DNA from: Theionarchaea archaeon
GTDB lineage: Archaea > Methanobacteriota_B > Thermococci > Methanofastidiosales > SZ-28-30
DNA: 51,465 nucleotides
Direction of reading: 5' to 3'
NCBI GenBank assembly: GCA_018992565.1
Contig: JACVGW010000011.1
Location: 1-51,465, forward strand
Shown here: piece by piece, positions 26,319 through 37,565 of the stretch
Layout: each line of letters begins with the position of its first letter
How positions within the stretch are numbered: the first letter of the stretch is position 1
The notes under the pieces: model-generated
Database searches by the model: none
Seen by the model: the letters and a program-made list of their open reading frames with translations, nothing else
Told to the model about the DNA's origin: nothing
Program-made: the position numbers and the translations under genes

Positions 26319-27506
26319 ATGACAAAGAGTATTTTCACCCTGGCACTTCATGCAGGTAGCCCTCCTGCACCCGACTTCATTCCAGTGGTTCCACCTATCT
26401 ACACTGCTGTTACCTATACCTATCCTTTCATGAAGGACATGGAAGCAGTTTTCTCTGGAGAGAAGTCAGGGTACGTATATGCCAGACATGGAGCTCCCAC
26501 CACTGCGTCTCTAGAGAAAGCGGTGGCTGCCCTGGAGGGAGGCGACGCTGCCCTTGCTTTCAGCTCAGGGATGGCAGCTATCCATGCAGCCTTGCTGGCG
26601 ACAGGAATCAAGAAAGAAGACTGCATACTGGCTGCTAATGATCTTTATGGAGCAACTCGGACGTTACTCGCCCAACACTACCAGAATATGGGTATCAAGA
26701 CATATTTCGTAGATATTTTCAATCTTCAACAGGTAGAGGATACTCTTGAGACTGCAGCTCCCAAGGTCCTCTTCTTTGAGAGTATTTCCAATCCATTGCT
26801 GAGAGTGGCCAATATCCCTGAATTGACAGCCCTGGCTCACCAGTACAATACCCGGGTCATTGTGGACAGCACCTTTGCCACCCCTTACCTTATTACTCCC
26901 TTACAGCACGGGGCAGACCTGGTGGTGCACAGTTCCACCAAGTACATCTCAGGGCATGGAGACGCACTGGGTGGAGTTGTCACATATCACAGAGAATTCC
27001 AAGAACCTCTGTATGACATATCAAAGATGTTGGGGGCTACGCTGGGCCCCTTTGAGGCGTATCTCACTTTGCGCGGGCTAAAAACATTACCTTTGAGGAT
27101 GAAAAGACACTGTGAGAATGCTCTGGCAGTGGCTGAATGCTTGAAGAAGAACCCACGAATTCGAGCTGTGCACTATCCTGGACTATCCACACATCCTCAT
27201 CATGACCTTGCATCACGGTTGTACGAGGAGAAAGGCTATGGAGGAGTAGTGACCTTTGAAATCAAGAATGCTGGGCAGAAAGAGGTATTCGCCTTTTTTG
27301 AAGCACTGACCCTGATAACACCTGCTACTTCTCTCGGTGATATCTACAGTCTGATTCTCTATCCTGTCCACGCATCTCACAGAGGGTTAACCTCAGAAGA
27401 GAGGAAATCCGTGGGGATAACTGAAGGAATGGTTCGTCTTTCAGTAGGGATAGAAGATTCCAGAGACATTATAGCAGATATTGAACAGGGGCTCCAATCC
27501 TTATAG
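26319..27506 (+). CDS. PLP-dependent Cys/Met metabolism enzyme (cystathionine gamma-synthase/methionine gamma-lyase family)
   Basis: YAR.G.PT, FSSGMAAI, ESISNP, VDSTFATP, HSSTKYISGHGD, RLSVGIED. Confidence 0.92.
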   Translation: MTKSIFTLALHAGSPPAPDFIPVVPPIYTAVTYTYPFMKDMEAVFSGEKSGYVYARHGAPTTASLEKAVAALEGGDAALAFSSGMAAIHAALLATGIKKEDCILAANDLYGATRTLLAQHYQNMGIKTYFVDIFNLQQVEDTLETAAPKVLFFESISNPLLRVANIPELTALAHQYNTRVIVDSTFATPYLITPLQHGADLVVHSSTKYISGHGDALGGVVTYHREFQEPLYDISKMLGATLGPFEAYLTLRGLKTLPLRMKRHCENALAVAECLKKNPRIRAVHYPGLSTHPHHDLASRLYEEKGYGGVVTFEIKNAGQKEVFAFFEALTLITPATSLGDIYSLILYPVHASHRGLTSEERKSVGITEGMVRLSVGIEDSRDIIADIEQGLQSL

Positions 27507-27585
27507 AGAGCTCTCACCTGTTATTCTTGAGACGTGAGTCTGTATTCTACTGGGGCCGAGAGTCTCCCAGCAATCACCAGACACC

Positions 27586-28092
27586 TTATTTCCCATAGGC
27601 TTCGTAGGATACAATTTCTGAGAGAGGTCTTCGACTGGAGGTACGACTCTCGTCAGGGTAACCCATGGATACGCAGCAGAGAATTCTGAGAGGATCACGT
27701 ATCTTCAGAAGTGCTTTCATATCGTTCTCAAAGCTTGCATCGATTACTCCCATCCAGCAGGTTCCCAGTCCCTGAGCATGTGCAGCCAAGAGAAGGTTCT
27801 GAGTAGCTATACATGCATCCATCAAGTAGTATTTGGGATTCAAATCAGGATCACCCAGGACCACAAAGACAACAGGGCTATCCTTCATGAACTGTCCATA
27901 GGGATGCATTTCAGATAGCTTCTTTCTGGTTTCTTGATTTCTCACGACAACAAAGTGCCAGGGCTGCTTGTTACTGGCAGAAGGAGCCCACCTGGCAGCT
28001 TCCAGACACCTCTGGATTTTTTCATCCTCTACAGAATCTTCTGTGTATTTTCGAATACTTCTTCTTGCTTTTATAGCATCGAGGACATCCAT
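27586..28092 (-). CDS. Nitroreductase family protein
   Basis: RRSIRKY, APSASNKQPW, LAAHAQGLGTCW. Confidence 0.93.
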   Translation of the reverse strand: MDVLDAIKARRSIRKYTEDSVEDEKIQRCLEAARWAPSASNKQPWHFVVVRNQETRKKLSEMHPYGQFMKDSPVVFVVLGDPDLNPKYYLMDACIATQNLLLAAHAQGLGTCWMGVIDASFENDMKALLKIRDPLRILCCVSMGYPDESRTSSRRPLSEIVSYEAYGK

Positions 28093-28158
28093 TTTCTCAC
28101 CATAATTCTTGGTTCTCATGTGGCATAAAAGGTTTCGGGGTTATTGCGGACCCTCCTT

Positions 28159-28258
28159 NNNNNNNNNNNNNNNNNNNNNNNNNNNNNNNNNNNNNNNNNN
28201 NNNNNNNNNNNNNNNNNNNNNNNNNNNNNNNNNNNNNNNNNNNNNNNNNNNNNNNNNN
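28159..28258. other. Assembly gap (100 N)
   Basis: Run of N; true length unknown. Confidence 0.99.
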
Positions 28259-28835
28259 AGGGGGAGGAAGGAGGACAGATACACCAATGGATTTCGAGCA
28301 GGGTCTTTGTTACCACGTTGCCAAACCGTGCTTGTGATCTCCCTTCATGAGGCGGGTTATGGTTCTCCAAATCCGCTTCCGTGTCCAGGCACTGGTACCC
28401 CAGACTGGAGAGTTGGTCTCTACAGGCCGGCAGGTCTTTGTCCTGAATGAGCAGATCAATATCAGCAAGAGGTCTCAACCCCATGTTCCCATAGACTGCT
28501 TTGGCCAGAAATATGCCTTTGAGACAAATGACTGGAATTGCAGCATCTGAGAAAACTCCGAGAATCTTTGCGAGTTCATGATAGAAAATCATATTACGGC
28601 CGACAGTCTCCAGGTACCTTCTCTTGAGGTGAGCTATCACATCGTCAGGTGTCTTCTCAAATCCTTTCAGATTCCAGTAGAGGAGTGGTGAGATTTCATG
28701 CAGATCAGAGCTATCTACTATATGCTTCCAGTCCATGTCTTCATTCAACAGGGCAGCGAGCTTTGAGTGTGTTTCAGACGTCATCTGGGTCCGCGCGCAG
28801 CACAAAAGGACTTCCTCTTCCGGTGAAAGATTCAT
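28259..28835 (-). CDS. Uncharacterised nucleotidyltransferase family protein (NTP_transf_5-like), 3' end lost in the gap
   Basis: LLCCAR, DW..H.ISPLLY, CLKGIFLA..VYG..GLRPLADIDLLI, LEIHW. Confidence 0.85.
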
Positions 28836-28888
28836 GTGAAACACACATTCCTCCAGGGGTCTGATATAAAAAGATATGGGCTGACCAC

Positions 28889-29734
28889 TCAAAGGCCCAG
28901 TGATATCTCTCTCATCACGTCTACAATGGACTCTGCAGGGACAAATCCAAGACGGTAGCAGGGGATATCAATCATTAACTCTGAGAGAAACTCCATAGTG
29001 AACACCATGCCCGCTCCGTCCCATCTTGGACAGAATGTGTGGCGAAGCATTGTTGCTAGAGTACCTTTCTGAGGTTCGAGGAAATTTCGTGGGGCGTGCT
29101 CAATGAAAAAGATGGCCTTTAACGGGAACTCCTGCGGGGAGGACATTTCAGTGTCTTTAACCCAGGGAGTACCATATACCAAATAGGGGGGTCTGCCCTT
29201 CCTCACGATGAGCGTGTCATCACTCAGAACAGTACAGTTCCTATACTTCCACAAAGCAGCCATAGTGCTCTTGCCAGCTCCTGACAATCCTGCACACATG
29301 AGTACATTCTCATCATCGACGATGCCCGCTCCATGGATCATGACGCCCAAGCCGGAGGCCAATATAGTTGCAAGAATATACCGGAAGAAAAACCGTTTCA
29401 GAGGATGCAGATATGTAGTGTAGAAATCGACTACCTTCTCCTTAGAATTTGCCTTCATGACTGCATCCCGCAACTCACGCCTGTAATCACGGATGTGAAA
29501 CTGAGTGATGAGATTGTCGCCATCGTGATACGTACTCAGTCTTTCTGAGCTATATACCTTTTCGCTTGGAAGAGAGAAAGGAGGATCCGAATTATGAAGT
29601 CTGAGAATTATGTCCGGGTTCCTGTCAGTAATGAATTTTTCATATATTTCGGGCAGCTCCAGATTACAGGAACAATGAGACTCTACTGCAATATTGACAG
29701 CACCAATACCAATGATAACGTCCTTCCATGTCAT
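28889..29734 (-). CDS. HprK-related P-loop kinase (ScmC-like)
   Basis: HGAGI, Walker A GLSGAGKST, LSDD, YGTPW. Confidence 0.8.
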   Translation of the reverse strand: MTWKDVIIGIGAVNIAVESHCSCNLELPEIYEKFITDRNPDIILRLHNSDPPFSLPSEKVYSSERLSTYHDGDNLITQFHIRDYRRELRDAVMKANSKEKVVDFYTTYLHPLKRFFFRYILATILASGLGVMIHGAGIVDDENVLMCAGLSGAGKSTMAALWKYRNCTVLSDDTLIVRKGRPPYLVYGTPWVKDTEMSSPQEFPLKAIFFIEHAPRNFLEPQKGTLATMLRHTFCPRWDGAGMVFTMEFLSELMIDIPCYRLGFVPAESIVDVMREISLGL

Positions 29735-29864
29735 TTCAGTTCACCTGCAAAGATCAGGTAATCAACGACTAATCATCTTATAAATCTTTTTGCCGAAAAC
29801 TGTAAGATTGTCATACGTTGTGAGAATGACAGAACCTTTAAGAATTCTCATGATAGGTACACGT

Positions 29865-30917
29865 ATGCAGGACGAAAAGGACTCTAGCAGGAAATCCTCG
29901 CATACAGTGAGATTCTGCTGTTCTTGCGGGCGCTCATTACAAGGAGTACATGAACCAGAAAAGGAAGCAGCAGTGTGGTTATGCGAATCCTGCGCGAGAG
30001 AGGAGCAGAAGCTGGTTCCCCATCTTCGCATGGGAGAGTACAGGCTCCTCCAGAGACTTGCGAGAGGTGGAAAATCAGTGGTGTACAAGGCATGGCAGCC
30101 TACCACATGTCAGGTGGTTGTTCTCAAGCAACTTTTACCAGCTGATGAACATCACCTGAAGCGCTTTCGTCATGAAATTGCCATCATGCAGAACGTGATT
30201 CATCCCAATATTGTTTCTCTCCTGGACCACGAGACTACTACCGAACCCTTCTATTCTGTTCTTGAATACATGCCCAGAGGAACCCTGCACAGTGAAGCGA
30301 GAACACAGTCTATGCCAGTTCCTGAGATATGCTGGAATTTCTGCCAGATCTTGGAGGCCCTGGATTACCTGCATGGAAAAAGAATCGTACATCGTGATGT
30401 GAAACCCCATAATATACTCCTCACAGCAAATGGGACAGCCAAACTTGCAGATTTCGGCTGTGCTCGTGAGATGAATGGAAATGATCTGTGTATACCTGAT
30501 ACCGGTAGGACTATTCCTTTCCTTTCTCCTGAAGAAATACAGGACAGCACCTACTTGAGCCCGTCAACAGATATGTATGCTGTGGGAGTGAGTCTGTACT
30601 ACCTTATCAGTGGGACGTTTCCGTTTCCATTTCCGTCCCAGGAGTCTGTTGTCAGAGTAGTACTAGGAGGAGAATCTTCCCGTGACCCTATAGCCCTGAT
30701 TCTTGAGAACAGGGAAAGAATCGAAACTGAGTTCGGGCGTGCGGTAATGCAGTCAATTGTGGAGGAGGATCGAATACCTGTTGGAATGTTCAGAAAGGAC
30801 ATTCCCAAGGACCTGGCTCGAATCATTGACAAGTCTGTCACGAAAAGGGAAGAAGATAGGGTCATGTCCGCGCGGGAAATGAGAGATGCGCTGCTGGCTC
30901 ACAGCCACAGGCTTTGA
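29865..30917 (+). CDS. Hanks-type Ser/Thr protein kinase with N-terminal zinc ribbon
   Basis: CxxC...CxxC; LARGGKSVVY, VVLK, HRDVKPHN, DFG, SPEE, DMYAVG; start uncertain. Confidence 0.9.
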   Translation: MQDEKDSSRKSSHTVRFCCSCGRSLQGVHEPEKEAAVWLCESCAREEQKLVPHLRMGEYRLLQRLARGGKSVVYKAWQPTTCQVVVLKQLLPADEHHLKRFRHEIAIMQNVIHPNIVSLLDHETTTEPFYSVLEYMPRGTLHSEARTQSMPVPEICWNFCQILEALDYLHGKRIVHRDVKPHNILLTANGTAKLADFGCAREMNGNDLCIPDTGRTIPFLSPEEIQDSTYLSPSTDMYAVGVSLYYLISGTFPFPFPSQESVVRVVLGGESSRDPIALILENRERIETEFGRAVMQSIVEEDRIPVGMFRKDIPKDLARIIDKSVTKREEDRVMSAREMRDALLAHSHRL

Positions 30918-31040
30918 ATCGGATGCTGTAATGCTGCTGCTTTTTCTACAAGTCAGCTCGTTATAGGAACATTCCCTTAAAAACAGAATCTTTTTTTATG
31001 ATGAATTTTTGAACAGAGAGAGTTAAAAAGAAACTCATCG

Positions 31041-31054
31041 GAAAGATTTAAATA
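31041..31054 (+). promoter_or_regulatory. BRE/TATA promoter of the precursor operon
   Basis: GAAAGATTTAAATA; SD GGAGGTGA follows at 31107-31114. Confidence 0.6.
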
Positions 31055-31119
31055 ACATACATCAGAGTCAACGTAATCCGTAACAAAAGGAACACAAATA
31101 CAAAAAGGAGGTGAGACCG

Positions 31120-31245
31120 GTGTATAAGCCCCCAATGATGGTAGACCTCATTTCCCCAGATAAGATGGTTGCCAATACCTGCAGCAACGGTAGCGGAAGT
31201 GACAACAGTTGCTCAAATGGGGATGATGGAGGATTCGTCTATTAG
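31120..31245 (+). CDS. Putative RiPP precursor peptide, 41 aa (MYKPPMMVDLISPDKMVANTCSNGSGSDNSCSNGDDGGFVY), ScmA-like
   Basis: GTG start 5 nt after a perfect GGAGGTGA SD; YxxP leader; two CSNG repeats; directly upstream of PqqD and two rSAM genes; below the ORF-track length cutoff. Confidence 0.85.
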   Translation: MYKPPMMVDLISPDKMVANTCSNGSGSDNSCSNGDDGGFVY

Positions 31246-31265
31246 ATCCAAGTAAGATTCTATCT

Positions 31266-31281
31266 CTATTTTTATTTTTTG
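31266..31281 (+). terminator. Oligo-T tract after the precursor gene (possible partial terminator)
   Basis: CTATTTTTATTTTTTG between the precursor and PqqD genes. Confidence 0.4.
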
Positions 31282-31308
31282 TCAATTCTTCTTGAAATGG
31301 AGATTCCC

Positions 31309-31578
31309 ATGGAACAAGATTATAAACCAAAGAAAGCGGAAAGGCTAATTTCGAGACAGGAAGATGACTCTTTGCTGATATTTGACTCAGATAGTGGATC
31401 CATCAAAGTGCTGAACGAGACAGCAGCTCTTGTGTGGAACACAATTGATGGGAACACGTCTGCACAAGAAATTATCGATGTTGTGTCTGAGAAAAATCCA
31501 GAAGAAAGCAGGGACACTATTGAAAGAGATGTCAAGGCTTTTCTGGAAGATCTTCAGAGCCACCATTTCATCATGTGA
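31309..31578 (+). CDS. PqqD family RiPP recognition element (ScmD-like)
   Basis: REDD.LLIFD..SG....LNETAALVW..IDG....EI...........DV..FLEDL pattern. Confidence 0.92.
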   Translation: MEQDYKPKKAERLISRQEDDSLLIFDSDSGSIKVLNETAALVWNTIDGNTSAQEIIDVVSEKNPEESRDTIERDVKAFLEDLQSHHFIM

Positions 31579-31629
31579 AAAGAAGATTTCTGTTCGGACA
31601 AAACCCTCAGCCACAGGAGATGATTGATT

Positions 31630-32670
31630 ATGAGAGGAATTTTCTGGGAAGTGACTTCCAGATGCAACCTACGATGTATGCACTGCTACTTGCATGAAGA
31701 GCTGACTTCTCTCTCCACAGATCCTTATGAACTGGATACTTTGGAATGCAAGAGATTAATCGACCAATTTGAAGAAGCTGGCGTCTTCTACGTGACTGTT
31801 TTGGGAGGAGAACCCTTCTGCAGACCAGATTTTATTACTATTCTACAGTACTTGGGAGAGAAAAAATTCTGGACTTCGCTTGATACCAACGGCACATTGC
31901 TGGACAAGATGGCCGCAGAAACCCTTGGAGCCATTACTATCAAAAATCTGAATGTCAGCATGGAAGGTCCCCGCCCTGAAATACATGATGCGATTCGCGG
32001 TGCAGGAGCCTACGAAAAGACAATCCGGGGGATAGAGAACCTCACGGAATGTGAGGTGCGGTTTCGCATAGGGATGATTGTCAATAAGATGAACTACCCC
32101 CACGTGGAGGAAATGGCAGAATTCTGCCTGGACATCGGCGCCCAAGATGCTGGATTCTCCTTGTATGTGGATTCCCCTTCAAACAGGTTCTCGTCAATGC
32201 TGCGAATGAATAGACGAGAGATTTTTGCTGCTGCCAGGAAAATAACAGAAGTGAAAGAGAGATTTCCCAAAGGATTTATCAAGAGTGACATTGACGGGAA
32301 CCTCGCATTTCTATCTGCCAATCCAGAAGAATACACCCGAAGTAAGAATCTTATCCCCTGCGGACTGGGAAAAACTCAGGCAACGATTCTCAACAATGGA
32401 GATATTATCCCCTGCACCTACATGCGGACTATAGTCGTTGGAAATGTGAGAGAGATCCATGTTTCAGAGATTGCCCAAACACCACAAATGAGAAAGATGC
32501 GAGAGCTGGGAACCCTTGCTGCTGACACAGCAATTGAGCAGTGTCGCTCCTGTAGGTGGAAGTATTTCTGTGGTGGAGGGTGCAGAGCGCGTTCATACCT
32601 GGAGTATGGGGACCTCGTATCTCCCGATCCTCTCAAGTGTCTGCTGGCTGGAGTTGATGCCTGTGAGTGA
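31630..32670 (+). CDS. Radical SAM/SPASM peptide maturase 1 (ScmE-like)
   Basis: CNLRCMHC, GGEPF, TNGTL; SPASM Cys pattern CGLG...PC...CRSCRWKYFCGGGCRA...C. Confidence 0.92.
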   Translation: MRGIFWEVTSRCNLRCMHCYLHEELTSLSTDPYELDTLECKRLIDQFEEAGVFYVTVLGGEPFCRPDFITILQYLGEKKFWTSLDTNGTLLDKMAAETLGAITIKNLNVSMEGPRPEIHDAIRGAGAYEKTIRGIENLTECEVRFRIGMIVNKMNYPHVEEMAEFCLDIGAQDAGFSLYVDSPSNRFSSMLRMNRREIFAAARKITEVKERFPKGFIKSDIDGNLAFLSANPEEYTRSKNLIPCGLGKTQATILNNGDIIPCTYMRTIVVGNVREIHVSEIAQTPQMRKMRELGTLAADTAIEQCRSCRWKYFCGGGCRARSYLEYGDLVSPDPLKCLLAGVDACE

Positions 32671-33748
32671 GCCACGGCTCAAGACAGTGTATTGGACTGT
32701 CACGCGTGAATGCAACCAGCGCTGCAGTCATTGCTGGATTAGTGCGGGGACAAGAAGGGAAGGTGAGTTGAATACTGAAGAATCCCTGCAGATTTTCAAC
32801 GTTATGGTGGACATGGGATTAGAGCAGGTGAAGTTGACAGGAGGTGAACCCCTTCTCCAATGGAAGAAAATCAATACTGTGATGGAATTTCTCATAGATC
32901 ATGGGGTTCAGCCTCGGATTGAGACTAATGCAACACTGATACAGGATGCCTATGGCGAGGAAATCCTATCATTTCTTGAGAAGAATCACGTACATGTGGC
33001 AGTAAGCCTTGACAGTCACATACCCCAGCAGCACGATCAGTTCAGGGGGATGAAAGGAGGGTTTGAAAAGACTCTTTCTGCATTGACCTCCATGAGAAGC
33101 CATAATATCTCGTTCTCGATTGTCACTGTGCTTCACAGGGAGAACCGTGCGACCATTGACGAGATTGTTGACTTTGTGCGTGAGATCTATCCGCGCCACC
33201 ACCAGATTAACATCATTACTCCTGAAGGAAGAGCAGAGAACAATGACCGATATCAGCTCCCTATAGAGTCGTACGTGGAAGATCTGCCTCTTCTCATAAA
33301 GAAAATCAGGAAAAAAATGGGAGAGAAGGTATCCTTTGCCATTCCGTATGTTTTTGCTCCGTTGAACACACGATTCCTTAACTGCACTGTGGGAAAGGAA
33401 ATCTGCGGCCTGCTGCCAAATGGCGACATTGCCATGTGTGGGGCTGGAATTAATCGAGAAGATCTTGTATTGGGAAATGCACTTCGAGATGATATTGAAG
33501 ATATCTGGCTGCACTCCCCTGTTTTCATGACATTGAGAAGAGGAATCACAAGCCTGAAGGGAGTGTGCAGTAACTGCTGGTTCGCTCAGTACTGCATGGG
33601 TCACTGCAGAGCGTATGCATATTCAGTATATGGCCAGTTGGAAGCTCCGTATCCAATGTGCCAGACAGTGTATGAGCAAGGAGCGTTCCCCGAAAAGTAT
33701 CTGGTGCATCCCGAGCGAGACTGTTCCTATGTTCCCCCAGAAGGATAA
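32657..33748 (+). CDS. Radical SAM/SPASM peptide maturase 2 (ScmF-like)
   Basis: CNQRCSHCWI, LTGGEPLL, IETNA; SPASM MCGAG...GVCSNC....CMGHCRA...C...GAFP; overlaps the end of the upstream rSAM gene. Confidence 0.92.
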   Translation: MPVSEPRLKTVYWTVTRECNQRCSHCWISAGTRREGELNTEESLQIFNVMVDMGLEQVKLTGGEPLLQWKKINTVMEFLIDHGVQPRIETNATLIQDAYGEEILSFLEKNHVHVAVSLDSHIPQQHDQFRGMKGGFEKTLSALTSMRSHNISFSIVTVLHRENRATIDEIVDFVREIYPRHHQINIITPEGRAENNDRYQLPIESYVEDLPLLIKKIRKKMGEKVSFAIPYVFAPLNTRFLNCTVGKEICGLLPNGDIAMCGAGINREDLVLGNALRDDIEDIWLHSPVFMTLRRGITSLKGVCSNCWFAQYCMGHCRAYAYSVYGQLEAPYPMCQTVYEQGAFPEKYLVHPERDCSYVPPEG

Positions 33749-33884
33749 GTGACGATTCAAGACATCTCTCGTCTGGACATGAGATCTGAATAAATCATTC
33801 GATGCATGTGACAATTCCATGGTACCTCTGACAGTGAGGGCCTCAATCACAAACCCTTATAAAAGGTATTCTAGAAGGTGAATC

Positions 33885-34001
33885 ATGGCATTTATTTTTG
33901 GAATGAGTCCAGGTATATTCGCAGCCTGGATTGTGGGACTGATAACTGTGGTATTGGCATTGTTATACCCATTCATGACGAGAGACGAGGAGGGAGACTG
34001 A
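33885..34001 (+). CDS. Small single-TM accessory protein of the sodium:solute symporter (38 aa, MAFIFGMSPGIFAAWIVGLITVVLALLYPFMTRDEEGD)
   Basis: SD AAGGTGA, TATA near 33856, one TM helix, TGATG overlap with the symporter start. Confidence 0.75.
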   Translation: MAFIFGMSPGIFAAWIVGLITVVLALLYPFMTRDEEGD

Positions 34002-35476
34002 TGCAACCTGACCTGGTCCCTGTTGAAAGTTATATAACCATTGCTGTGGGTGTTTTCGTCCTGTATCTTGTCCTGAATATCTTCATTGGATATTATGGGA
34101 GTACGAAAACCAAGACTGCAAAAGACTACTATTTTGCTTCCCACTCTGTTGGCCCCTGGGCTATTGCCCTGGCATACGGTGCTACCTGTTATAGTGCCAC
34201 CTTGATAATAGGGTACGGGGGCCTTTCGTACAAGATAGGAACCTCCATGTTGTGGATCGCAGCCACAAATATTTTGATCATGACCTATCTGGCCTGGGTT
34301 GTCCTGGGGAAAAGAGTTAGAAAGATGCAAGAGAACCTTGAAGCGTATACCGTCATGGAATTGTTGACTAAGAGATATCAGAACAAGAATGTGCGTCCCA
34401 TCCTGGCTTTTATTGTTATGTTTGCTATGATGGCGTACTCTGTGGCTGTCTTGAGTGGAACTGCCCGGTTATTTCAGGTGATTTTCGACATTCAATTCCT
34501 GTATGCGTTGATCATTATCGTGGCTGTTATTGGATTTTACATCACTGTAGGCGGTATCATATCCACTATCTATGCGAATTTTCTCCAGGGAGCTGTCATG
34601 CTTCTGGGAATGGTGATCCTGCTGGCCGGTATTGCATACAAGGTTGGATTTGCATCTGGATTTGAGCAGCTGGCTGCATTGGGAACAGAGTACGTCACAA
34701 TGCCCGGAACAAGTACCTGGTGGTTCTTGATCTCGTTATGTCTGGTGACAAGTCTGATGCCCTGGGGCATGCCCCAGGTAATTTCAATGCTGTACTCAGC
34801 CAAGAATGTGAGGGCAATCAGACTGGCTGTCCCTATTGTGACTGTCTGGTCTTTCATCATCCTATATACTGTTTATACAGCAGGCCCTCTGGCCAGAGTT
34901 GTGTTGGGTCCTGACATGAGTCAGGACGTTGTAATGCCCACCTTGTTTAGGGCAATCCTCCCCGCCATGGGGATTGGGGTTGTTCTGTCCGCAGTGGTGG
35001 CAGCTTCCATGTCAACAGCCTCTGCAACGACCTTGCAGGCTTCTTTTGCCTTATCCAGAGATCTGTTACAGCCTGCTTTTCCGGACAGGATCTCTGATGA
35101 TACGATCCTGAAAGTGTCAAAGAGCACCACCATTCTCATGGTAGCCATTGCATTCGGGCTGTCCTATCTGCGCTTGGGAACAATTGCTGACATTTTCAAC
35201 TTAGGTGCCGCAGCTTCCTGCGCCGCTTTTGTGCCACCCCTGGTATGCGGGCTCTTCTGGAAACGGGGAACCTCAAGAGCGATAATGGCCAGTACTATTA
35301 GTGGGTTCCTCACTGTCATCGTGTGGACAGTCCTTTTTGGACCAGCGGGAGAAGGATTCTACGGTGTCCAGGCTATTATCCCAAGTCAGATTGTGGGTTG
35401 GCTGGTGTTTGTTGTGAGTTCTCTCATAACAGAGCCATTACAGAAGGAACACGTTGAACGTGCCATGAAATTCTGA
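34001..35476 (+). CDS. Sodium:solute symporter family protein (PutP/PanF-like)
   Basis: About 13 TM segments; DYYFA...G, SA..IIG..G, GMPQV, AASMST, WKRGT. Confidence 0.92.
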   Translation: MQPDLVPVESYITIAVGVFVLYLVLNIFIGYYGSTKTKTAKDYYFASHSVGPWAIALAYGATCYSATLIIGYGGLSYKIGTSMLWIAATNILIMTYLAWVVLGKRVRKMQENLEAYTVMELLTKRYQNKNVRPILAFIVMFAMMAYSVAVLSGTARLFQVIFDIQFLYALIIIVAVIGFYITVGGIISTIYANFLQGAVMLLGMVILLAGIAYKVGFASGFEQLAALGTEYVTMPGTSTWWFLISLCLVTSLMPWGMPQVISMLYSAKNVRAIRLAVPIVTVWSFIILYTVYTAGPLARVVLGPDMSQDVVMPTLFRAILPAMGIGVVLSAVVAASMSTASATTLQASFALSRDLLQPAFPDRISDDTILKVSKSTTILMVAIAFGLSYLRLGTIADIFNLGAAASCAAFVPPLVCGLFWKRGTSRAIMASTISGFLTVIVWTVLFGPAGEGFYGVQAIIPSQIVGWLVFVVSSLITEPLQKEHVERAMKF

Positions 35477-37073: not shown

Positions 37074-37565
37074 ATGAGAAAAGCGCTGATTATTGGATTA
37101 GCAGTCATGGTAGTACTGAGCATGTTGAGTGGATGCATCGGAGACGAATCAGAAACAACGCCTAGTGTTGAAAGCGTGAATTCAGGAGAGTCCAACGAAG
37201 AGATAGGGACAACAACTCCACAGAATCCTCCAGAAGGCTCCCCACAGAATCCTCCAGAAGGCTCCCCACAGAATCCTCCACTTCCAATGAATCTGGAAGA
37301 ACCGACCTCTGAAGAGGAAGAAGAGGCAAAGAGAATTGCATTGGAAGATGAAAGAGTCCAGGATCTAATACAGGGAGGCACCTATGACCTCGAGGCAATT
37401 GGCTGCATGCTTCTTCCCAGTGGTGATAGGACTTGCCTTCTCCGGTTGGAGCTCGAGAATGGAGATACGTACACTATCACGATCAATCTGAGTAGTGGTG
37501 TCGTGATGGATGTGAGAGAAGGTGAAATCCCTCCAGGTAGAGAAGGAGAGAGCGGAAATGGGTAA
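37074..37565 (+). CDS. Putative lipoprotein with a Pro-rich repeat linker
   Basis: Signal peptide with LSGC lipobox; PQNPPEGS repeats; SD GGTGA. Confidence 0.8.
   Translation: MRKALIIGLAVMVVLSMLSGCIGDESETTPSVESVNSGESNEEIGTTTPQNPPEGSPQNPPEGSPQNPPLPMNLEEPTSEEEEEAKRIALEDERVQDLIQGGTYDLEAIGCMLLPSGDRTCLLRLELENGDTYTITINLSSGVVMDVREGEIPPGREGESGNG
37218..37280 (+). repeat. 24-bp tandem repeat, 2.6 copies, in frame
   Basis: CCACAGAATCCTCCAGAAGGCTCC x2 plus CCACAGAATCCTCCA. Confidence 0.95.

What the first reader, a model, noticed from the sequence alone, without database searches (positions are those of the whole stretch)
28259..33748. Archaeal radical-SAM RiPP biosynthetic cluster (SynChlorMet-like) with an extra Ser/Thr kinase
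Seen: one arm carries the precursor, a PqqD/RRE protein and two overlapping rSAM/SPASM genes. A divergent arm carries an HprK-related kinase and a nucleotidyltransferase, with a Hanks kinase between the arms. Established: PqqD/RRE plus SPASM rSAM enzymes modify ribosomal peptides, and the SynChlorMet cassette combines a Cys-containing peptide, ScmC, PqqD-like ScmD and the rSAMs ScmE/ScmF; to my knowledge its product is uncharacterised. Inference: this archaeon makes a multiply modified peptide, possibly with thioether crosslinks plus phosphorylation or nucleotidylation.
Basis: partly seen in the sequence, partly recalled or inferred. Interest (0 to 1): 0.9.

Follow-up and report, generated by a model that had tools for sequence, protein, structure and literature searches.

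The report
Archaeal peptide-modifying cassette with two kinases
An uncultured sediment archaeon carries a conserved seven-gene set that most likely makes a small, heavily modified cysteine-containing peptide of a type whose chemistry nobody has yet worked out.

Summary
Window 28116-33748 holds seven genes: a PF14907 nucleotidyltransferase and an HprK/ScmC-like P-loop kinase on the minus strand, and on the plus strand a zinc-ribbon Hanks Ser/Thr kinase, a 41-aa peptide, a PqqD/RRE protein and two overlapping radical-SAM/SPASM enzymes.

All seven genes, including the Hanks kinase and the small peptide, recur in two 17-kb metagenome loci. The three peptides share a Y-x-P-P-x-M leader and a C-S-x-G...C core.

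Every SynChlorMet (Scm) model gives a hit, but all five score far below their curated cut-offs. This is therefore a distant Scm-like variant, not a member.

The second rSAM belongs to a tight family of about 20 sequence clusters at 53-71% identity, named only from Theionarchaea/Methanofastidiosia MAGs. It was found in 1 of 133 genomes of the phylum. The Hanks kinase is the only one detected in this genome and has just five close relatives.

The product and its chemistry remain inferred. I found no paper on the Scm cassette.

Verdict: a real cluster and a new variant of a known kind, of moderate to high interest.

The parts
28116..28892 (-). PF14907 (NTP_transf_5) nucleotidyltransferase. The gene is interrupted by the N-run 28159-28258. 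The start is probably the ATG near 28835.
   Evidence: Pfam gives 105.2 bits, E 5.6e-30, covering profile positions 2-128 of 249. The G-x4-D-x-D motif is seen directly in the translation. Homologues in L013 (411 aa) and L015 (354 aa) score 195 and 200.7 bits. Contigs in runs X15 and X20 bridge the gap with 385 letters.
28889..29734 (-). HprK/ScmC-like P-loop kinase, 281 aa, with the Walker A motif GLSGAGKST.
   Evidence: NCBIfam: HprK_rel_B 30.3 bits, ScmC 22.3, HprK_rel_A 19.7, all below cut-off. AF2 model: pLDDT 94.3, pTM 0.91. Foldseek: PEPCK E 2.7e-6, and HPr kinase/phosphatase 1knx_A E 2.3e-5. Nearest ESM Atlas clusters carry Pfam PF27840 'ScmC' in 27-49% of their members. Orthologues in L013 and L015 are 42-44% identical.
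29826..30917 (+). Hanks-type Ser/Thr kinase, 363 aa, with an N-terminal CxxC...CxxC zinc ribbon. The maximal ORF starts at 29790.
   Evidence: Pkinase 159.4 bits. In 7 of 7 family members the four Cys, H-x-D-x-K-x-x-N, D-F and P-E are invariant. It is the only match in the own genome at E<=1e-4. It is conserved in L013 and L015 at 40-42% identity.
31047..31054 (+). TTTAAATA, an archaeal TATA-box-like element about 65 nt upstream of the peptide start.
   Evidence: Read directly. Aligned A/T boxes are present in L013 and L015. The promoter function is inferred.
31107..31114 (+). GGAGGTGA ribosome-binding site, 5 nt before the GTG at 31120.
   Evidence: The same element lies upstream of the L013 and L015 peptide ORFs.
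31120..31245 (+). Precursor peptide, 41 aa, with leader Y-K-P-P-M-M...I-S-P and a core carrying two C-S-N-G motifs.
   Evidence: Invariant positions are Y2 P4 P5 M7 P13 N19 C21 S22 G24 C31. tblastn gives E 8e-6 to L013 and 3e-4 to L015. ScmA gives 18.3 bits, E 0.002, below the cut-off of 35.
31268..31281 (+). T-rich tract after the peptide stop codon, possibly an archaeal oligo-T attenuator.
   Evidence: T-rich tails occur in all three loci. The function is inferred.
31279..31578 (+). PqqD-family RRE-type peptide chaperone. The start is probably ATG 31297 or 31309.
   Evidence: PF05402 57.7 bits. NCBIfam: PqqD 34.4 bits and ScmD 33.8, both below cut-off. It is 55-64% identical to the L013 and L015 proteins.
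31630..32670 (+). Radical SAM/SPASM enzyme 1, with CxxxCxxC near the N-terminus and no fused RRE domain.
   Evidence: Radical_SAM 93.5 bits, SPASM 46.1. The top NCBIfam models lie within 4 bits of each other: MftC 148.5, AhbD 147.8, NirJ2 146.8, ScmE 144.7, all below cut-off. The best solved relative is PqqE, E 3.1e-16.
32657..33748 (+). Radical SAM/SPASM enzyme 2. Homologues start at the GTG at 32663. It overlaps rSAM1 by 8-14 nt.
   Evidence: ScmF 192 bits (cut-off 400), next model NirJ2 at 151.8. Across 20 family members the invariant Cys are C17/C21/C24 plus nine further Cys (C241, C248, C259, C302, C305, C311, C315, C333, C354), several in a SPASM-type pattern. The best solved relative is SkfB, E 3.7e-15.

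Best explanation
This is a self-contained maturation cassette for a ribosomally made peptide.

Shown:
- A strongly translated 41-aa peptide sits in front of a PqqD/RRE protein and two rSAM/SPASM enzymes that lack their own RRE domain.
- A divergent arm encodes an HprK/ScmC-like P-loop kinase and a PF14907 nucleotidyltransferase.
- A zinc-ribbon Hanks kinase travels with the set.

Inferred mechanism:
1. PqqD binds the conserved Y-x-P-P-x-M leader and presents the core to the two rSAM/SPASM enzymes.
2. Each rSAM enzyme acts at or near one of the two invariant Cys. Thioether-type or other radical cross-links are the most likely outcome.
3. The HprK-like kinase phosphorylates a core Ser. The only invariant Ser is the one in C-S-x-G.
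4. The nucleotidyltransferase decorates that phosphate or hydroxyl, by analogy with the kinase/nucleotidyltransferase pair of phosphorylated and phosphoglycosylated lasso peptides.
5. The Hanks kinase adds a second phosphorylation or controls the pathway.

No protease or exporter is conserved, so the product may stay in the cell.
For: - Domains: PqqD, Radical_SAM plus SPASM (twice), Pkinase and NTP_transf_5 all score above the Pfam cut-offs.
- All seven genes recur in L013 and L015, although the gene order is rearranged.
- The three peptides share ten invariant positions. All three have a GGAGGTGA-type RBS and an upstream A/T box.
- The closest solved relatives of both rSAMs are peptide-modifying SPASM enzymes: SkfB, PqqE, CteB (5wgg), SuiB (5v1q) and anSME.
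- The rSAM2 family is one clade (SH-aLRT 100). Neither rSAM family lies inside the NirJ2-named/PCP_red clade.
- The HprK-like protein folds confidently (pLDDT 94.3) into the PEPCK/HPr-kinase fold.
- Kinase catalytic residues are conserved in 7 of 7 Hanks-kinase relatives.
- The STK, the HprK-like protein, the NTase and the peptide each have a single copy in the 2.8-Mb genome.
- Precedent: an HPr-kinase homologue phosphorylates a lasso precursor Ser, and a nucleotidyltransferase adds hexose to that phosphate (PMC8498205, passages read).
- PqqD with the peptide modelled as a complex gave weak support: score 0.48, best of 3 controls 0.01. That mark was reached by 116 of 157 solved complexes and 2 of 215 mismatched pairs. 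At 0.60 or under it was reached by only 18 of those 157 solved complexes and by both mismatches that passed. The runs agree in at least 97% of contacts, and the partner's pLDDT is at least 53. RRE-leader complexes have been solved, so the pass may only reflect likeness.
Against: - No chemistry has been observed.
- All Scm, MftC, PqqE and sactipeptide models score below their cut-offs, so no characterised enzyme predicts the reaction.
- For rSAM1 the top hits are tied between peptide enzymes (MftC, ScmE) and tetrapyrrole enzymes (AhbD, NirJ2).
- The core is not well conserved. L015's core is only ...C-S-P-G-C-Y, and the ScmA hit occurs for 1 of 3 peptides.
- None of the 3 peptides ends in Ser, the site used by the lasso HprK homologues.
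- The three loci with context come from only two organisms. L013 and L015 carry proteins that NCBI names from one Theionarchaea MAG.
- No protease or exporter is conserved.
- The complex prediction is only a weak pass.
Confidence: 0.62

Rival explanations
1. The cassette and the peptide substrate are as described, but the product is an intracellular peptide-derived cofactor or redox molecule in the manner of PQQ or mycofactocin, and not a secreted natural product.
For: - No protease or exporter is conserved in 3 of 3 loci.
- The top NCBIfam model for rSAM1 is the mycofactocin maturase, at 148.5 bits.
- The window peptide ends in ...F-V-Y and L015's ends in ...C-Y. That MftA ends in Val-Tyr is recalled and comes from no call.
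- The organism is an anaerobe-type sediment archaeon whose genome gave 69 matches to the ScmF radical-SAM/SPASM model at E<=0.001.
Against: - MftC scores 148.5 bits against a cut-off of 265.
- No mycofactocin-precursor model hit the peptide.
- L013's peptide ends in ...E-E-P-E with no Tyr.
- Two kinases and a nucleotidyltransferase have no counterpart in the PQQ or mycofactocin pathways (recalled).
Confidence: 0.15
2. The Hanks kinase is not a tailoring enzyme. It is a regulator or a stand-alone defence-type kinase that merely travels with the cluster.
For: - One close relative (P0126) carries a fused FHA domain, and the next-nearest relatives are bacterial FHA or PASTA signalling kinases.
- PADLOC kinase models mad6 (199.8 bits) and PD-T4-6 (178.1 bits) match the kinase domain.
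- Its position relative to the other genes differs in each of the three loci.
Against: - It is present in 3 of 3 loci.
- It is the only Hanks kinase detected in the genome.
- Its orthologue family is as small as that of the cluster's own enzymes: 5 clusters at 41-50% identity.
- The PADLOC and NCBIfam kinase hits cover only the generic kinase domain. MADS6 in NCBIfam scores 126 bits against a cut-off of 460.
Confidence: 0.35
3. The two rSAM/SPASM proteins are tetrapyrrole enzymes of the Ahb/NirJ type or other small-molecule enzymes, and the small ORF is spurious.
For: AhbD and NirJ2 models score 143-152 bits on both rSAMs, level with the best peptide-enzyme models for rSAM1. In the quick tree rSAM1 sits on the same side as the NirJ2-named group, with SH-aLRT 88 and 93, neither starred.
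Against: - These scores are far below the cut-offs of 500.
- Both rSAM families are excluded from the starred NirJ2/PCP_red clade (99).
- A PqqD gene and a conserved peptide ORF with an RBS lie directly upstream in 3 of 3 loci.
- None of the seven cassette genes is a heme-synthesis gene, and no flanking gene scanned with Pfam matched one.
Confidence: 0.05

Closest known systems
SynChlorMet (SCM) cassette, NCBIfam/TIGRFAM TIGR04248-TIGR04252 (ScmA, ScmC, ScmD, ScmE, ScmF)
   Same: It has the same five roles: a small peptide, an HprK-like protein, PqqD and two rSAM/SPASM enzymes. ScmF is the best model for rSAM2, and ScmA is the only model for the peptide. The nearest ESM Atlas clusters of the HprK-like protein carry Pfam 'ScmC'.
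   Different: All five scores are far below their cut-offs. The same holds for homologues P0002 and P0004 (201.8 and 187.2 bits against 400). This cassette adds a PF14907 nucleotidyltransferase and a zinc-ribbon Hanks kinase. From recall of the family descriptions, the canonical cassette has neither, but I could not fetch a canonical cassette to check.
Phosphorylated and phosphoglycosylated lasso peptides (paeninodin, pseudomycoidin)
   Same: They use an HPr-kinase homologue plus a putative nucleotidyltransferase as a tailoring pair beside a PqqD-type RRE (PMC8498205, passages read).
   Different: None of the seven cassette proteins matched a lasso cyclase or a B2 protease; only PqqD-chaperone models of lasso systems hit, below cut-off. 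None of the 3 peptides ends in the C-terminal Ser that those kinases use. Here the core enzymes are rSAM/SPASM.
GeoRSP system and HprK-related kinase A/B systems (TIGR04302/04303/04355, TIGR04352/04353)
   Same: They combine an HprK-related kinase, PqqD and rSAM/SPASM. HprK_rel_B is the best model for the kinase (30.3 bits), and GeoRSP_rSAM scores 136.8 bits on rSAM2.
   Different: All scores are below the cut-offs of 200-400. From recall, these systems are defined only bioinformatically.
Sactipeptide/ranthipeptide and PQQ maturases (SkfB, CteB, PqqE with PqqD)
   Same: They are the closest solved structures by sequence. They share the rSAM plus SPASM architecture with a Cys-containing peptide substrate and an RRE.
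   Different: E-values are only 1e-11 to 1e-16. Here the RRE is a separate protein, and the cassette has two kinases and an NTase.

Membership tests
SynChlorMet cassette (NCBIfam equivalogs) | ScmF model TIGR04251 at or above 400 bits | tested here: not met
   rSAM2 scores 192 bits. Homologues P0002 and P0004 score 201.8 and 187.2. None of the 69 matches in the own genome is over the cut-off.
SynChlorMet cassette (NCBIfam equivalogs) | ScmE model TIGR04250 at or above 400 bits | tested here: not met
   rSAM1 scores 144.7 bits and ranks fourth. The L013 homologue scores 150.9.
SynChlorMet cassette (NCBIfam equivalogs) | ScmA at or above 35 bits, ScmC at or above 125, ScmD at or above 100 | tested here: not met
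   The scores are 18.3, 22.3 and 33.8 bits. The L013 and L015 peptides give no ScmA hit at all.
SynChlorMet cassette (NCBIfam equivalogs) | Gene content of peptide, HprK-like protein, PqqD and two rSAM/SPASM in one cassette (definition recalled) | tested here: met
   with the same content in L013 and L015.
RRE-dependent rSAM/SPASM RiPP-type pathway | CxxxCxxC radical SAM core plus a SPASM domain | tested here: met
   PF04055 scores 93.5 and 82.8 bits, PF13186 scores 46.1 and 33.6 bits. The Cys are invariant in the 20-member alignment.
RRE-dependent rSAM/SPASM RiPP-type pathway | A PqqD/RRE protein and an adjacent, conserved short precursor ORF | tested here: met
   PF05402 scores 57.7 bits. 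The peptide is conserved directly upstream of PqqD in 3 of 3 loci with context.
RRE-dependent rSAM/SPASM RiPP-type pathway | The RRE binds the leader, and the enzymes modify the core | tested here: inconclusive
   The complex model gave weak support only: 0.48 against a best control of 0.01. Modification cannot be tested with these tools.
Lasso-peptide HprK/NTase tailoring | A C-terminal Ser on the precursor, with a lasso cyclase and a B2 protease | tested here: not met
   The peptides end in Y, E and Y. No cyclase or protease domain is present among the seven proteins.
Mycofactocin system | MftC model TIGR03962 at or above 265 bits, and an MftA-type precursor | tested here: not met
   The scores are 148.5 and 129.4 bits, and no MftA model hit the peptide.
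Heme d1 / alternative heme rSAMs (NirJ, NirJ1/2, AhbC/D) | Model scores at or above 500-650 bits, and placement inside that clade | tested here: not met
   Scores are at most 151.8 bits. Both families lie outside the NirJ2-named/PCP_red clade (99*). This is a quick tree with few references.
Class III/IV lanthipeptide synthetases | A kinase domain fused to lyase and cyclase domains (LanL at or above 650 bits, LanKC at or above 575) | tested here: not met
   The scores are 73.2 and 31 bits and cover the kinase domain only.

The most novel reading that the evidence does not exclude
This is a new class of archaeal modified peptide. Two unrelated kinases (a PEPCK/HprK-fold kinase and a zinc-ribbon Hanks kinase) and a nucleotidyltransferase build a phospho- or nucleotidyl/glycosyl-phospho-Ser next to a Cys in a C-S-x-G motif. 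Two SPASM radical enzymes cross-link the two Cys. With no exporter or leader protease in the cassette, the product acts inside the cell, for example as a redox or metal-binding cofactor or a signal, and not as an antibiotic.
Probability: 0.15. Interest if true: 0.8.

Novelty: new variant of a known kind. Interest (0 to 1): 0.58.

Why it matters
I know of no characterised radical-SAM RiPP from archaea (recalled; my broad genome-mining search, listed none), and I found no paper on the SynChlorMet type at all: 0 papers for 'SynChlorMet', and 0 for its five TIGR accessions.

This variant offers a compact, testable seven-gene set:
- a clear 41-aa substrate;
- a separate RRE protein;
- three phosphoryl- or nucleotidyl-transfer enzymes, including a Hanks kinase that is dedicated to the cluster and is the only one detected in the genome.

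Near-identical DNA is held by 20 sediment-type metagenome runs from 7 studies, so the organism and the cluster are environmentally common. Working out the product would assign chemistry to a whole group of orphan HprK-like/PqqD/SPASM cassettes. The HprK-like protein alone has 1770 representative relatives at E<=1e-10.

Tried and rejected
- Context in named genomes. Two genome-contig scans returned no true relative. Only weak hits came back, to a Thermotalea record and a Crocinitomicaceae record. I therefore could not fetch a canonical SCM cassette or further named archaeal loci.
- The rSAM2 family among kin. It was found in 1 of 133 genomes of the phylum at E<=1e-80, but only 15 of 41 and 15 of 56 candidates were scored in G001 and G002. 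A direct search of G001-G003 gave at best 35% identity.
- Peptide homologue search: no candidate shared words with the query. The ESM Atlas gave only unnamed 38-45-aa clusters scoring 0.86-0.89, below the 0.9 lead level.
- Expression: no RNA holder was listed. Run X19 laid nothing.
- Rfam: no family matched in 27000-35000.
- HprK-like protein: no PDB match by sequence at E<=10.
- PADLOC: only generic kinase-domain and viperin-core matches. I rejected the defence-system reading for the whole cassette.
- Mycofactocin-like, class III/IV lanthipeptide and Ahb/NirJ readings: considered and rejected as memberships (see Membership tests).
- Literature:
  - 'SynChlorMet': 0 papers.
  - The five TIGR accessions plus PF14907: 2 papers, 1 listed, and that one holds PF14907 only in a phosphonate paper.
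  - 'HPr kinase' + 'radical SAM' + 'PqqD' + 'nucleotidyltransferase': 0 papers.
  - 'Theionarchaea' + 'biosynthetic gene cluster': 0 papers.
  - Acronym searches returned only unrelated uses.
  - PMC10878394 was checked by term search only and held nothing on Scm or kinases.
  - Papers in subscription journals are outside the searched library.

Full report
**What is there**

Minus strand:
- A PF14907 nucleotidyltransferase at 28116-28892 (105.2 bits).
- Abutting it, a 281-aa protein at 28889-29734 with a GLSGAGKST P-loop. It gives only weak hits to HprK-related kinase B (30.3 bits), ScmC (22.3) and HprK-related kinase A (19.7).

Plus strand:
- A Hanks-type Ser/Thr kinase, ORF 29790-30917 with a likely start at 29826 (Pkinase 159.4 bits).
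- A small ORF at 31111-31245.
- A PqqD protein at 31279-31578 (57.7 bits).
- Two radical SAM/SPASM proteins, at 31624/31630-32670 and 32657/32663-33748, which overlap by 8-14 nt.

Flanking genes are ordinary housekeeping genes. They include Alba, a geranylgeranyl-reductase-like flavoprotein, a Cys/Met PLP enzyme, a nitroreductase, a sodium:solute symporter and a metallo-beta-lactamase-fold protein. The Alba gene and the source names of the closest homologues fit an archaeal host. The genome is a 2.8-Mb, 154-contig assembly, 88% complete.

**The gap**

The finding's left edge is an artefact. Bases 28159-28258 are 100 N and cut the nucleotidyltransferase. Contigs from two public runs of different studies (X15 and X20) bridge the run with 385 letters in place of the 100. 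That keeps the reading frame and gives about 353 aa, close to the 354-aa L015 homologue. The gene is therefore probably intact, and the join to the nitroreductase is real.

**The small ORF is a real, conserved peptide**

- A GGAGGTGA site lies 5 nt before a GTG at 31120. A TTTAAATA box lies about 65 nt upstream, and a T-rich tract follows the stop.
- The ORF as printed is MRPVYKPPMMVDLISPDKMVANTCSNGSGSDNSCSNGDDGGFVY.
- In the two metagenome loci that hold homologous enzymes, an ORF sits in the same place, directly upstream of PqqD:
  - MIYEPPIMSGIISPNPFNGCSNGKGWFEGCSSGGGGAEEPE in L013;
  - MRYMYKPPLMTNLVDPAAAGTNICSPGCY in L015.
- tblastn gave E 8e-6 and 3e-4.
- The three peptides share Y2 P4 P5 M7 P13 N19 C21 S22 G24 C31, that is a Y-x-P-P-x-M leader and a C-S-x-G...C core.
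- The RBS and the A/T box align in all three loci, and the Pro codons differ synonymously.
- The window peptide gives a sub-threshold hit to ScmA (18.3 bits, cut-off 35, E 0.002). The other two give none.

**The whole set is conserved, including the 'extra' kinase**

tblastn of the seven window proteins against L013 and L015 found all seven in both loci:

| Protein | Identity to L013 / L015 |
|---|---|
| NTase | 45-51% |
| HprK-like | 42-44% |
| Hanks kinase | 40-42% |
| PqqD | 55-64% |
| rSAM1 | 51-55% |
| rSAM2 | 57-59% |

Gene order differs between the loci.
- In L013 the kinase lies beyond the NTase arm.
- In L015 the kinase lies beside a second rSAM1 copy. L015 also has extra genes: a squalene-cyclase-repeat protein, a hydantoinase/MfnF-like protein between PqqD and rSAM1, and a B12-binding rSAM. 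Fragments of an rSAM1/rSAM2 junction lie next to the NTase-HprK arm.

A caveat on independence. P0008 and P0009, which match L015 and L013, are named by NCBI from one Theionarchaea MAG. The three loci therefore represent two organisms.

**Rarity and distribution**

- rSAM2 has about 20 relatives at 53-71% identity, after which identity drops to 33% or less. The named sources are Theionarchaea and Methanofastidiosia MAGs.
- Among species-representative genomes the family was found in 1 of 133 of the phylum. It was not found in the three closest genomes when they were searched directly; the best identity there was 35%.
- The Hanks kinase has only five relatives at 41-50% identity. Beyond them come bacterial FHA- and PASTA-type kinases at 33% or less.
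- In the own genome, the kinase, the HprK-like protein, the NTase and the peptide each match only themselves at E<=1e-4.
- All 7 aligned kinases keep a CxxC...CxxC zinc ribbon and the H-x-D-x-K-x-x-N, D-F and P-E motifs.
- Near-identical DNA is held by 20 DNA runs of 7 studies, labelled marine sediment, estuary, mangrove or soil. 11 of these runs may be the source of the assembly.

**The HprK-like protein**

- It has 6952 representative relatives at E<=0.001, of which 1770 reach E<=1e-10 and 60 reach E<=1e-30. Only two exceed 45% identity.
- Of the 60 members I aligned (the window protein plus 59 picked from the 150 listed):
  - 58 hit HprK_rel_B;
  - 45 hit ScmC;
  - 34 hit HprK_rel_A;
  - 23 hit HPr(Ser) kinase.

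  All of these hits are weak, the best E being 3e-12.
- AF2 on that alignment gave pLDDT 94.3 and pTM 0.91.
- Foldseek matched ATP-dependent PEPCK (E 2.7e-6, TMq 0.50) and HPr kinase/phosphatase 1knx_A (E 2.3e-5, TMq 0.35).
- The ESM Atlas placed it (score 0.96) among clusters in which 27-49% of members carry Pfam PF27840 'ScmC'. That family gave no hit in the Pfam copy used.

**The rSAMs**

- Both have the CxxxCxxC motif within the first 25 residues, so neither has room for a fused RRE. Both have a SPASM domain. Twelve Cys are invariant in the rSAM2 family.
- The best solved relatives are peptide-modifying SPASM enzymes:
  - rSAM2: SkfB 3.7e-15, PqqE 2.4e-12, CteB 3.1e-11;
  - rSAM1: PqqE 3.1e-16, anSME 1.7e-13, SuiB 1.3e-10.
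- NCBIfam ranks ScmF first for rSAM2, by 40 bits.
- For rSAM1, however, MftC, AhbD, NirJ2 and ScmE lie within 4 bits of each other. All are below their cut-offs.
- A quick tree of 50 rows shows each family as one clade (SH-aLRT 100). Both families are excluded from the starred NirJ2-named/PCP_red clade. The rows were chosen. No canonical ScmE/F, AhbD or MftC sequences were available.

**How it most likely works**

Shown: the parts and their conservation.

Inferred:
1. PqqD binds the leader. The complex model gave weak support: score 0.48, best of 3 controls 0.01. That mark was reached by 116 of 157 solved complexes and 2 of 215 mismatched pairs. At 0.60 or under it was reached by only 18 of the solved complexes and by both mismatches that passed. 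At least 97% of contacts agree between runs, and the partner's pLDDT is at least 53. Solved RRE-leader complexes exist, so this may only reflect likeness.
2. The two SPASM enzymes act on the two-Cys core.
3. The HprK-like kinase and the NTase act as in phosphorylated and phosphoglycosylated lasso peptides. There an HPr-kinase homologue phosphorylates a precursor Ser and a nucleotidyltransferase adds hexose to the phosphate (PMC8498205, passages read).
4. None of the three peptides ends in Ser, so the invariant Ser of C-S-x-G is the best candidate site.
5. Whether the Hanks kinase tailors the peptide or regulates the pathway is open. I put regulation at about 35%.

No protease or exporter is conserved, so an intracellular role is possible.

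**Comparison and novelty**

The cassette works like the SynChlorMet cassette and its HprK/PqqD/SPASM cousins, but it fails every curated membership threshold. It also adds an NTase and a dedicated zinc-ribbon Hanks kinase. I found nothing in print on the SCM cassette in the searched library. It is a new variant of a known, and itself uncharacterised, kind.

Noticed in passing
window 28159-28258: This is an exact 100-N run inside the nucleotidyltransferase gene. Contigs of runs X15 and X20 carry 385 letters there, which keeps the ORF in frame.
   Followed up: yes
window 31000-31275: Run X20 shows a contig joint at depth 39.3 that skips 274 bases, exactly the promoter and precursor gene, with 26 other letters between. 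There are also loose ends at 30979 and 31297. The shorter side of the joint is only 22 letters, so it may come from another organism or a repeat. If real, it could mark a strain that lacks or has swapped the precursor.
   Followed up: no
G000 contig C119 11015-16508; contig C73 3674-7817: The genome holds two further PqqD-linked clusters. On C119 there are four tandem rSAM/SPASM genes, a PqqD-like ORF and an MFS-type membrane protein. On C73 there are a PqqD, one rSAM/SPASM and two 450-470-aa ORFs with CxxxCxxC radical-SAM motifs (B12-type by look, not scanned). The genome has 69 matches to the ScmF rSAM/SPASM model at E<=0.001.
   Followed up: partly
L015 2528-3577, 3617-5038, 5844-6956, 9307-11109, 13767-14420: The paralogous cluster in L015 has several extras:
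- a second rSAM1 copy;
- a squalene-cyclase-repeat protein;
- a hydantoinase/MfnF-like gene inserted between PqqD and rSAM1;
- a B12-binding rSAM (ApyD/PhpK-like at about 100 bits);
- broken remnants of an rSAM1/rSAM2 junction next to the NTase-HprK arm.
   Followed up: partly
protein P0126 (485 aa): One close relative of the cluster's Hanks kinase (42% identity) carries an N-terminal FHA domain ahead of the same zinc ribbon. This hints at phospho-dependent signalling.
   Followed up: no
window 37074-37565 (+): A 163-aa ORF with a hydrophobic N-terminus followed by a Cys, and a tandem PQNPPEGS repeat. It looks like a secreted or lipid-anchored protein. It was not scanned.
   Followed up: no
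L013 1154-2188 (-): A 344-aa ORF lies between a methyltransferase-like gene and the Hanks kinase. By eye it resembles a transposase (not scanned). It may explain the rearranged gene order in this locus.
   Followed up: no
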